Below, piece after piece: positions 11,452 to 11,772 of a stretch of 64,000 nucleotides of DNA; the stretch's first letter is position 1; each line of letters starts with the position of its first letter. The notes under the pieces are model-generated. The model worked only from the letters and a program-made list of their open reading frames with translations, ran no database searches and was not told the origin of the DNA. The DNA is taken from the NCBI RefSeq assembly GCF_009914755.1, contig NC_060928.1, one strand, 5' to 3'. The position numbers and the translations under genes are program-made. Source of the stretch: the human T2T-CHM13v2.0 reference genome, Homo sapiens.

Positions 11452-11740
11452 CAATAAAATGAAAATTTAAAAACTACCTTAGCTAATACTATTTATCATA
11501 GTAACAATCCTAATAGCAGCAATAACTATAATAAGTAATACTAAATGAACTCTTACTGTATATCAGCACATCTCATCTTTAAAGTTGAGGTTTGAACCCA
11601 AGTTCCTGACTACAAAGCTATGCTCTTGACCTCTAGGTCATGTGGCCTCCCTAACAAGAAAAACTAGAAACTATCTTCTGAATGAACAAAATAGGAATCA
11701 CTAAGTGACCTAAATTTATTTAAATTATCTCACTTGTCAA
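11452..11740. repeat. Right arm of ~285-bp inverted repeat, starting 32 nt after the exon 7 donor
   Basis: Reverse complement aligns to 10171-10453. Confidence 0.95.
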
Positions 11741-11772
11741 GGCACAGAATAATTTCCAAGACCATAGCTTAC

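What the first reader, a model, noticed from the sequence alone, without database searches (positions are those of the whole stretch)
11660..11772. Hairpin-masked intronic poly(A) site that could release a secreted Ig1-3 VEGF trap
Seen: reading through the exon 7 donor gives [17 protein letters not shown]. The TAA (11722-11720) overlaps a canonical AATAAA (11720-11715), followed by a CA ~8 nt downstream and U/GU-rich tracts (TATTTTGTTCATT, TTTCTAGTTTTTCTTGTT). This whole cassette lies in the best-matched part of the inverted-repeat 5' arm, and the AATAAA is perfectly complemented by the distal arm. Established: exons 1-7 encode residues 1-325 (signal peptide and Ig1-3); Ig2-3 is the VEGF-binding unit; RTK genes, including KDR at intron 13 and FLT1, make soluble decoys by intronic polyadenylation. 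Inference: use of this site would give a 342-aa secreted decoy. Because the complementary arm is transcribed 1.3-1.6 kb later, stem formation, Pol II speed, ADAR/helicase activity and U1 binding 52 nt upstream could act as a switch between full-length receptor and decoy.
Basis: partly seen in the sequence, partly recalled or inferred. Interest (0 to 1): 0.8.

Follow-up and report, generated by a model that had tools for sequence, protein, structure and literature searches.

The report
Dormant poly(A)-like motif in KDR intron 7
The stop codon, AATAAA motif and long inverted repeat just after exon 7 of the human VEGF receptor 2 gene are really there, but such motifs are common in this gene and nothing found here shows that this one is used to make a short secreted receptor.

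Summary
The exon 7 donor is ATG|GTAAGC. Read-through gives [17 protein letters not shown], and the TAA (11722-11720) overlaps AATAAA (11720-11715), followed by U/GU-rich tracts. A 285-nt, 85% matched inverted repeat (11452-11742 / 10169-10453) pairs the hexamer perfectly in the predicted fold. The product would have 325 + 17 = 342 residues and end at the end of Ig domain 3.

None of this sets the site apart. The 24 kb of KDR in the window holds 42 sense-strand AATAAA/ATTAAA hexamers, 38 of them intronic. All 15 introns give a stop within 1-51 codons. Introns 3 and 8 carry AATAAA 11-12 nt after the donor.

The hexamer lies 52 nt behind a strong constitutive donor, inside the published ~1 kb range of U1 suppression. 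It came with an old local inverted duplication (K2P 0.165). Its pairing partner is transcribed about 1.5 kb later, so the fold cannot hide it at first.

RefSeq lists one KDR transcript. The six literature searches and the reviews read name only the intron 13 soluble form. Use and cross-species conservation could not be tested here.

Best reading: a dormant cryptic poly(A) signal. Interest is low.

The parts
11773..11950 (-). KDR exon 7 (residues 267-325 plus first base of codon 326); second half of Ig domain 3
   Evidence: Hub annotation. The translation matches VEGFR-2 chains 3v2a_R residues 267-324, 2x1w_L 148-205 of 213 and 3s35_X 51-108 of 122. Cumulative coding length is 976 nt.
11767..11775 (-). 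Exon 7 donor ATG|GTAAGC: six contiguous consensus positions (-1 to +5)
   Evidence: The consensus comparison is by inspection against CAG|GTAAGT (recalled).
11720..11773 (-). Read-through frame giving the 17-residue tail [17 protein letters not shown] and TAA (11722-11720)
11715..11720 (-). AATAAA hexamer, 52 nt after the donor, sharing one A with the stop codon
11653..11707 (-). CA (11707-11706) and U/GU-rich tracts (11693-11681, 11670-11653): a motif-level cleavage zone and downstream element
   Evidence: The home-made downstream U/GU score is 10.0, tied 2nd-4th of 42 sense hexamers.
11452..11742 (-). Proximal arm of the inverted duplication (begins about 30 nt after the donor)
10169..10453 (-). 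Distal arm, complementary in the transcript; carries the mirror hexamer on the + strand at 10191-10196
10617..11386 (.). High-copy transposon-like insert in the spacer, flanked by TA/TA, with inverted ends CAGTTGACC...; interrupted by an Alu (7SL matches 11013-11297, - strand)
   Evidence: (pair I8).

Best explanation
This is a dormant, poly(A)-signal-like cassette of the kind that litters human introns, not a working switch.

Origin (inferred): a roughly 290-nt piece of AT-rich intron was duplicated in inverted orientation some 40-80 million years ago. Its core looks like an old tRNA-derived SINE; that likeness is recalled, not tested. The AATAAA came with that piece, and its mirror copy sits antisense in the distal arm.

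Silencing (inferred): in the KDR transcript the hexamer lies 52 nt behind the strong, constitutively used exon 7 donor. U1 snRNP binding and rapid commitment to splicing keep it silent.

The stem (shown in silico only): the long double-stranded stem can form only after about 1.5 kb more RNA has been made. It is most simply a by-product of the duplication. At most it adds a second, late layer of occlusion, shortens the effective intron, or serves as an editing substrate.

Product: if the donor were blocked or U1 were limiting, cleavage here is plausible. It would give mRNA for a 342-residue secreted Ig1-3 fragment.
For: Hexamers and short read-through tails are common in this gene:
- 42 sense AATAAA/ATTAAA in 24 kb, 38 of them intronic.
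- All 15 introns give tails of 1-51 residues. AATAAA sits at +11 in intron 3 and +12 in intron 8.
- AATAAA is twice as frequent in the window as in shuffles: 180 against 94.7.

Donor and U1:
- The donor ATG|GTAAGC matches the consensus from -1 to +5, whereas the intron 13 donor, where IPA is known, is TAG|GTAGGG.
- The review PMC3826338 (passages read) gives U1 suppression a range of about 1 kb and describes a 5' splice site just upstream of a PAS blocking polyadenylation.

PAS context: no UGUA lies within 100 nt upstream, against 3 at the real KDR terminal site.

The duplication:
- The arm has only two copies in the genome, self and partner at 84% identity.
- The block ATAATTTAAATAAATTTAGG is identical in both arms, so the hexamer is inherited sequence.
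- Differences between the arms show no clear bias towards keeping pairs: 15 of 23 transitions give G.U, and 27 of 42 differences are true mismatches.

Timing: the hexamer is mostly unpaired (P unpaired 0.43-0.73) until the distal arm is included (0.002).

Annotation and print: RefSeq lists 1 of 1 transcript (hub table). Two reviews name only full-length and intron 13 forms (PMC6540211 passages; PMC6523102 Figure 1 legend).
Against: - The motif architecture is good: canonical AAUAAA, and a U-rich tract 22-34 nt after it. My downstream U/GU score is tied 2nd-4th of 42.
- That score is uncalibrated. The true terminal site scores 7.0 and the two intron 13 hexamers score 9.0 and 7.0, so it cannot rule use in or out.
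- The cassette lies in a 95% matched stretch of the arms, which is compatible with constraint.
- A published hypothesis links long-range pairing to suppression of premature polyadenylation (PMC8052449 passages).
- No 3'-end data, long-read data or multi-species alignment could be consulted, so absence of use is not shown.
Confidence: 0.72

Rival explanations
1. A genuine but minor intronic polyadenylation site. A small share of KDR transcripts is cleaved about 10-25 nt after the hexamer and encodes a secreted 342-aa Ig1-3 fragment that binds VEGF.
For: - Canonical hexamer plus a U-rich downstream element.
- The stop lies in the would-be last exon, so no NMD is expected (inference).
- The product ends at the Ig3 boundary.
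- IPA upstream of the transmembrane exon is reported as common in RTK genes, including KDR intron 13 (PMC3826338 passages).
Against: - A strong donor lies 52 nt upstream and there is no UGUA upstream.
- RefSeq has no such transcript (hub table).
- No mention in six literature searches.
- In the held supplements of a placental PAS-Seq paper, KDR appears once, in a gene-level expression table only (the files were cut when stored, so this is weak).
Confidence: 0.15
2. Pairing with the distal arm masks the signal. Pol II speed, helicases or ADAR decide between full-length receptor and decoy.
For: - The stem is very stable: -344.6 kcal/mol for the two arms, against -60.8 and -60.6 for each folded alone.
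- P(unpaired) of the hexamer falls from 0.43-0.73 to 0.002 when the distal arm is included.
- Structure-dependent choices between splicing and polyadenylation are discussed in PMC8052449, which names Drosophila Nmnat (passages).
- HIV-1 hides its AAUAAA in a hairpin (PMC2645353, abstract start only).
Against: - The partner arm is transcribed 1.3-1.5 kb later, so the signal is exposed first.
- U1 at the donor is nearer and acts earlier (inference from PMC3826338).
- The differences between the arms show no clear excess of pair-keeping changes.
- The stem is explained by a duplication without any selection.
- It requires rival 1 to be true first.
Confidence: 0.04
3. The inverted repeat matters for something other than polyadenylation. 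It may loop out about 1 kb of transposon-filled intron to help splicing, or it may be an ADAR-edited double strand. The hexamer is incidental. This is not exclusive of the best explanation.
For: - 260 of 306 proximal-arm nucleotides pair with the distal arm.
- The loop holds a transposon-like element and an Alu.
- PMC8052449 reports that conserved complementary regions lie in introns and are rich in editing sites (abstract and passages).
Against: - No editing, cross-linking or conservation data could be consulted.
- 15% divergence with 27 true mismatches and 6 gap columns is what neutral decay would give.
Confidence: 0.2

Closest known systems
Soluble VEGFR-2 (sKDR / esVEGFR2) from intron 13 retention and polyadenylation
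   Same: It is the same gene and the same logic: read-through of a donor, a short novel tail ([16 protein letters not shown] in this window), an intronic AATAAA, and loss of the transmembrane and kinase parts. It can be induced by blocking the upstream donor (PMC3826338 passages).
   Different: - The intron 13 form is documented in print and keeps six Ig domains (PMC6540211).
- Its donor TAG|GTAGGG is weaker by inspection, and its hexamers lie 1402 and 1720 nt from the donor.
- The intron 7 site is 52 nt from a strong donor, would keep three Ig domains, and has no reported transcript.
Dormant intronic poly(A) signals held down by U1 snRNP (telescripting)
   Same: It is a canonical signal inside the ~1 kb range of a U1-bound 5' splice site. 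PMC8052449 speaks of thousands of such dormant sites in human genes.
   Different: Activation on U1 inhibition is not shown for this site. Here the signal also lies in a long stem.
Structure-occluded poly(A) signal of HIV-1 (polyA hairpin)
   Same: The AAUAAA lies inside a base-paired stem. The polyA hairpin encompasses the signal and is important for regulating polyadenylation (PMC2645353, abstract start only).
   Different: The viral hairpin is local and folds at once. Here the partner is 1.3-1.5 kb away and the stem is a 285-nt imperfect duplex made by a genomic duplication.
Pairs of conserved complementary regions in human introns (Kalmykova et al. 2021, PMC8052449)
   Same: [quoted passage not shown]
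   Different: Their set is defined by cross-species conservation, which I could not test. I did not check whether this pair is in their catalogue.

Membership tests
Secreted decoy RTK isoform made by intronic polyadenylation | Site lies upstream of the exon that encodes the transmembrane segment | tested here: met
   Intron 7 follows residue 325. Coding sequence continues to at least residue 755 in the window's 15 exons. The position of the transmembrane segment after that is recalled.
Secreted decoy RTK isoform made by intronic polyadenylation | In-frame stop soon after the unspliced donor, ahead of the poly(A) signal | tested here: met
   A 17-residue tail; the TAA overlaps the hexamer. All 15 introns also give a short tail, so this does not discriminate.
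Secreted decoy RTK isoform made by intronic polyadenylation | Canonical hexamer with a downstream U/GU-rich element | tested here: met
   (uncalibrated score; no UGUA upstream).
Secreted decoy RTK isoform made by intronic polyadenylation | Polyadenylated transcripts observed ending at the site | not testable with these tools
   No 3'-end or EST data are held. RefSeq lists 1 of 1 transcript (hub table). Nothing was found in print.
Secreted decoy RTK isoform made by intronic polyadenylation | Secreted protein that binds ligand | not tested
   Only the domain boundary was checked.
U1-suppressed dormant intronic poly(A) signal | Signal within about 1 kb of a U1-bound 5' splice site | tested here: met
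   It lies 52 nt from the donor ATG|GTAAGC. The range is taken from PMC3826338.
U1-suppressed dormant intronic poly(A) signal | Cleavage appears when U1 or the donor is blocked | not testable with these tools
   Needs an experiment.
Structure-occluded poly(A) signal | Hexamer base-paired in the stable fold | tested here: met
   11720-11715 pair with 10191-10196. P(unpaired) is 0.002. In silico only.
Structure-occluded poly(A) signal | Occluding structure forms before the processing machinery can act (local hairpin) | tested here: not met
   The partner arm is 1213-1406 nt away. P(unpaired) is 0.43-0.73 in nascent RNAs that lack it.
Conserved complementary region pair (PCCR) | Both arms conserved across species with compensatory changes | not testable with these tools
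   No vertebrate genome other than the window's own is held. Within the human pair, 15 of 23 transitions keep G.U, which is not decisive.

The most novel reading that the evidence does not exclude
KDR intron 7 holds a real, conditionally used poly(A) site. It yields a 342-residue secreted Ig1-3 VEGF trap, far smaller than the known intron 13 form. A 285-nt long-range duplex, born from an ancient inverted duplication, competes kinetically with cleavage. Elongation rate or double-strand unwinding or editing would then set the receptor-to-decoy ratio in endothelium.
Probability: 0.04. Interest if true: 0.75.

Novelty: new member of a known kind. Interest (0 to 1): 0.2.

Why it matters
If the site were used, endothelial cells would have a second and much smaller natural VEGF trap. 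There would also be a new target for donor-blocking antisense oligos, of the kind already shown to work at intron 13. It would be a rare worked example of long-range RNA pairing gating polyadenylation in a human gene.

As it stands, the case mainly illustrates a caution. A stop codon, an AATAAA and a U-rich tract behind a splice donor are expected many times over in an AT-rich gene. They are not by themselves evidence of an isoform.

Tried and rejected
**Literature.** Six searches found no KDR intron 7 isoform:
- KDR + intronic polyadenylation: 30 papers held, 20 listed.
- soluble VEGFR2 + intron 7: 2 papers; the 'intron 7' in the one I read refers to HIF-3alpha.
- VEGFR2 + truncated + alternative polyadenylation + endothelial + intron: 26 papers held, 15 listed.
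- Three Ensembl transcript identifiers and three transcript names recalled from memory: 0 papers.
- HUVEC + intronic polyadenylation + soluble: 12 papers.
- VEGFR2 + exon 7 + truncated + soluble + novel: 47 papers held, 15 listed.

I judged most of these from titles and abstract starts only.

**Papers not held.** Vorlova et al. 2011 (PMC3781938) and Tian et al. 2007 (PMC1781347) are not held. What I say of them comes from the review PMC3826338 or from recall. Their supplements may list further KDR sites.

**Other papers.** In the supplements of the placental PAS-Seq paper PMC5610261, KDR appears once, in an expression table (files cut when stored). PMC11550612 does not name KDR in its main text.

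**Repeat identification.**
- tRNA scan of 10000-11800: 0 genes.
- The Rfam search of 9200-11800 gave only Alu-related matches (7SL and Alu-derived miRNA families) and one weak chance match. Nothing fell on the arms.
- The arm core resembles a MIR-type SINE only by my recollection of the consensus. I did not type that consensus, so this was not tested.

**PAS score.** My home-made score does not separate the known sites from the others. I use it only to say the candidate is not poor.

**Not run.** I did not fold the protein or predict complexes; nothing in the question turned on it.

Full report
**1. What is in the sequence**

The window is the 5' half of human KDR on the minus strand. Exon 7 ends at 11773 and its donor reads ATG|GTAAGC.

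Reading on in frame gives [17 protein letters not shown] and a TAA at 11722-11720. The last A of the stop is the first A of AATAAA at 11720-11715.

A CA follows at 11707-11706. U/GU-rich tracts lie at 11693-11681 and 11670-11653.

The coding parts of exons 1-7 add up to 976 nt, that is 325 codons and one base. The product would therefore have 342 residues.

The exon 7 translation is identical to residues 267-324 of the VEGFR-2 chain 3v2a_R. It lies close to the C-terminal end of the short VEGFR-2 chains 2x1w_L (148-205 of 213) and 3s35_X (51-108 of 122). So the exon does end at about the end of Ig domain 3. That these short chains are the ligand-binding D2-D3 and D3 constructs is recalled; the tool gives only the molecule name.

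**2. The inverted repeat**

The repeat finder gives two adjoining blocks (10248-10347/11561-11660 and 10170-10252/11659-11741), each 90% complementary.

Aligned over their whole length, the arms are 11452-11742 and 10169-10453. They have 285 aligned positions, of which 243 are identical (85%). There are 23 transitions, 19 transversions and 6 gap columns, and the Kimura distance is 0.165.

A search of the window's own genome found the arm only twice, itself and its partner, with 2 first-look candidates. By contrast, a piece of the spacer drew 4175 first-look candidates. The arms are therefore a local inverted duplication, not two copies of a common repeat. The search would miss very old repeat copies.

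At 1.0-2.2 x 10^-9 substitutions per site per year (rates recalled), the distance corresponds to about 38-83 million years.

The spacer holds a high-copy element at 10617-11386 with inverted ends CAGTTGACC..., flanked by TA on both sides. That element is interrupted by an Alu in the sense orientation (7SL matches at 11013-11297). Without these inserts the arms were about 230 nt apart.

**3. Does the stem hide the signal?**

At equilibrium, yes:
- In the minimum-energy fold of the 1703-nt sense RNA (11802-10100), 260 of 306 proximal-arm nucleotides pair with the distal arm.
- 11720-11715 pair one for one with 10191-10196.
- The two arms together fold at -344.6 kcal/mol, against -60.8 and -60.6 alone.

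The partner is made late, however. In nascent RNAs that end at 11640, 11400 or 10500, the mean probability that the hexamer is unpaired is 0.65, 0.73 and 0.43. It drops to 0.002 only when the RNA reaches 10100. The signal is thus exposed while about 1.5 kb more is transcribed. How that delay compares with the time cleavage needs is inference, and I did not compute it.

**4. Is the cassette more than chance?**

- The 24 kb of KDR in the window has 25 sense AATAAA and 17 sense ATTAAA, 38 of the 42 in introns.
- All 15 introns give a stop within 1-51 codons of the donor.
- Intron 3 has AATAAA 11 nt after its donor and intron 8 has it 12 nt after.
- AATAAA is about twice as common in the window as in dinucleotide-preserving shuffles: 180 against a mean of 94.7, with 0 of 100 shuffles reaching 180.

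On a simple score of my own for downstream U/GU richness, the candidate scores 10.0, tied for 2nd-4th of 42. It has no UGUA within 100 nt upstream, whereas the annotated KDR terminal site (ATTAAA) has 3. The score is uncalibrated: the terminal site gets 7.0 and the two intron 13 hexamers get 9.0 and 7.0. It shows only that the candidate is not a poor motif.

**5. Context that argues against use**

The donor matches the consensus at six contiguous positions (-1 to +5). The intron 13 donor, where polyadenylation is known, is TAG|GTAGGG (the consensus is recalled).

The review PMC3826338 (passages read) states three relevant things:
- U1 snRNP suppresses intronic signals over about 1 kb.
- A 5' splice site a few nucleotides upstream of a signal blocks polyadenylation through U1-70K.
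- Blocking the donor upstream of a natural intronic site activates it, as at KDR intron 13.

A signal 52 nt from a strong donor sits where this suppression should be strongest (inference).

The hexamer lies in a 20-nt block that is identical in both arms. Its mirror copy is antisense to KDR at 10191-10196. So its presence is explained by descent.

The differences between the arms give G.U in 15 of 23 transitions, and 27 of 42 differences are true mismatches. That is no clear sign of selection for pairing.

**6. What is in print**

Reviews name only two KDR mRNA forms: full length, and the soluble form from intron 13 (PMC6540211 passages; PMC6523102 passages and Figure 1 legend).

Six searches found nothing on intron 7. 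Most of their hits were judged from listings only.

The primary paper on decoy RTKs (Vorlova 2011) and Tian 2007 are not held. Their supplements could bear on this.

The idea that long-range pairing interacts with premature polyadenylation is already a published hypothesis (PMC8052449 passages). A hairpin around AAUAAA is known in HIV-1 (PMC2645353, abstract start).

**7. Verdict**

My odds for the readings:
- Dormant cryptic signal carried by an old inverted duplication and silenced by the adjacent donor: 0.72.
- Real minor isoform: 0.15.
- Structure-gated switch: 0.04.

Use of the site, conservation across species and in-cell formation of the duplex could not be tested with the tools at hand. 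The look-ups and experiments that would settle them are listed under next steps.

Noticed in passing
window 10617-11386: A high-copy transposon-like element sits in the spacer of the inverted repeat. It has a TA duplication on both sides and inverted ends CAGTTGACC.../...GGTCAACTG. The own genome gave 4175 first-look candidates, of which 40 were scored at 82-88% identity. The ends look Tigger/mariner-like, but that is from recall only.
   Followed up: partly
window 11013-11320 (- strand): An Alu, sense to KDR, is inserted inside that element (two 7SL matches, 68.4 and 39.8 bits). Its A-tail shows as the T-run at about 10986-11019 on the + strand.
   Followed up: partly
window 17054-17059 and 9104-9109 (- strand): Introns 3 and 8 of KDR carry AATAAA only 11-12 nt after the donor, with read-through tails GKW* and W*. 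This is the same layout as the finding, with poorer downstream tracts.
   Followed up: partly
window 980-3113 (intron 13): Read-through of the exon 13 donor (TAG|GTAGGG) gives [16 protein letters not shown]. Sense AATAAA hexamers lie at 1706-1711 and 1388-1393. This is the intron of the published soluble KDR form. I did not establish which hexamer is used.
   Followed up: no
window 40278-40318 (+) and 25711-25732 (-): Tandem AATAA-type simple repeats account for runs of overlapping AATAAA matches. They contribute to the twofold excess of the hexamer over shuffles.
   Followed up: no
L003 (G000:C4:58566700-58567500): The annotated KDR 3' end uses ATTAAA 24 nt before the end, with three UGUA within 100 nt upstream. 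There is no AATAAA or second ATTAAA between 60 nt upstream and 10 nt downstream of the annotated end.
   Followed up: partly
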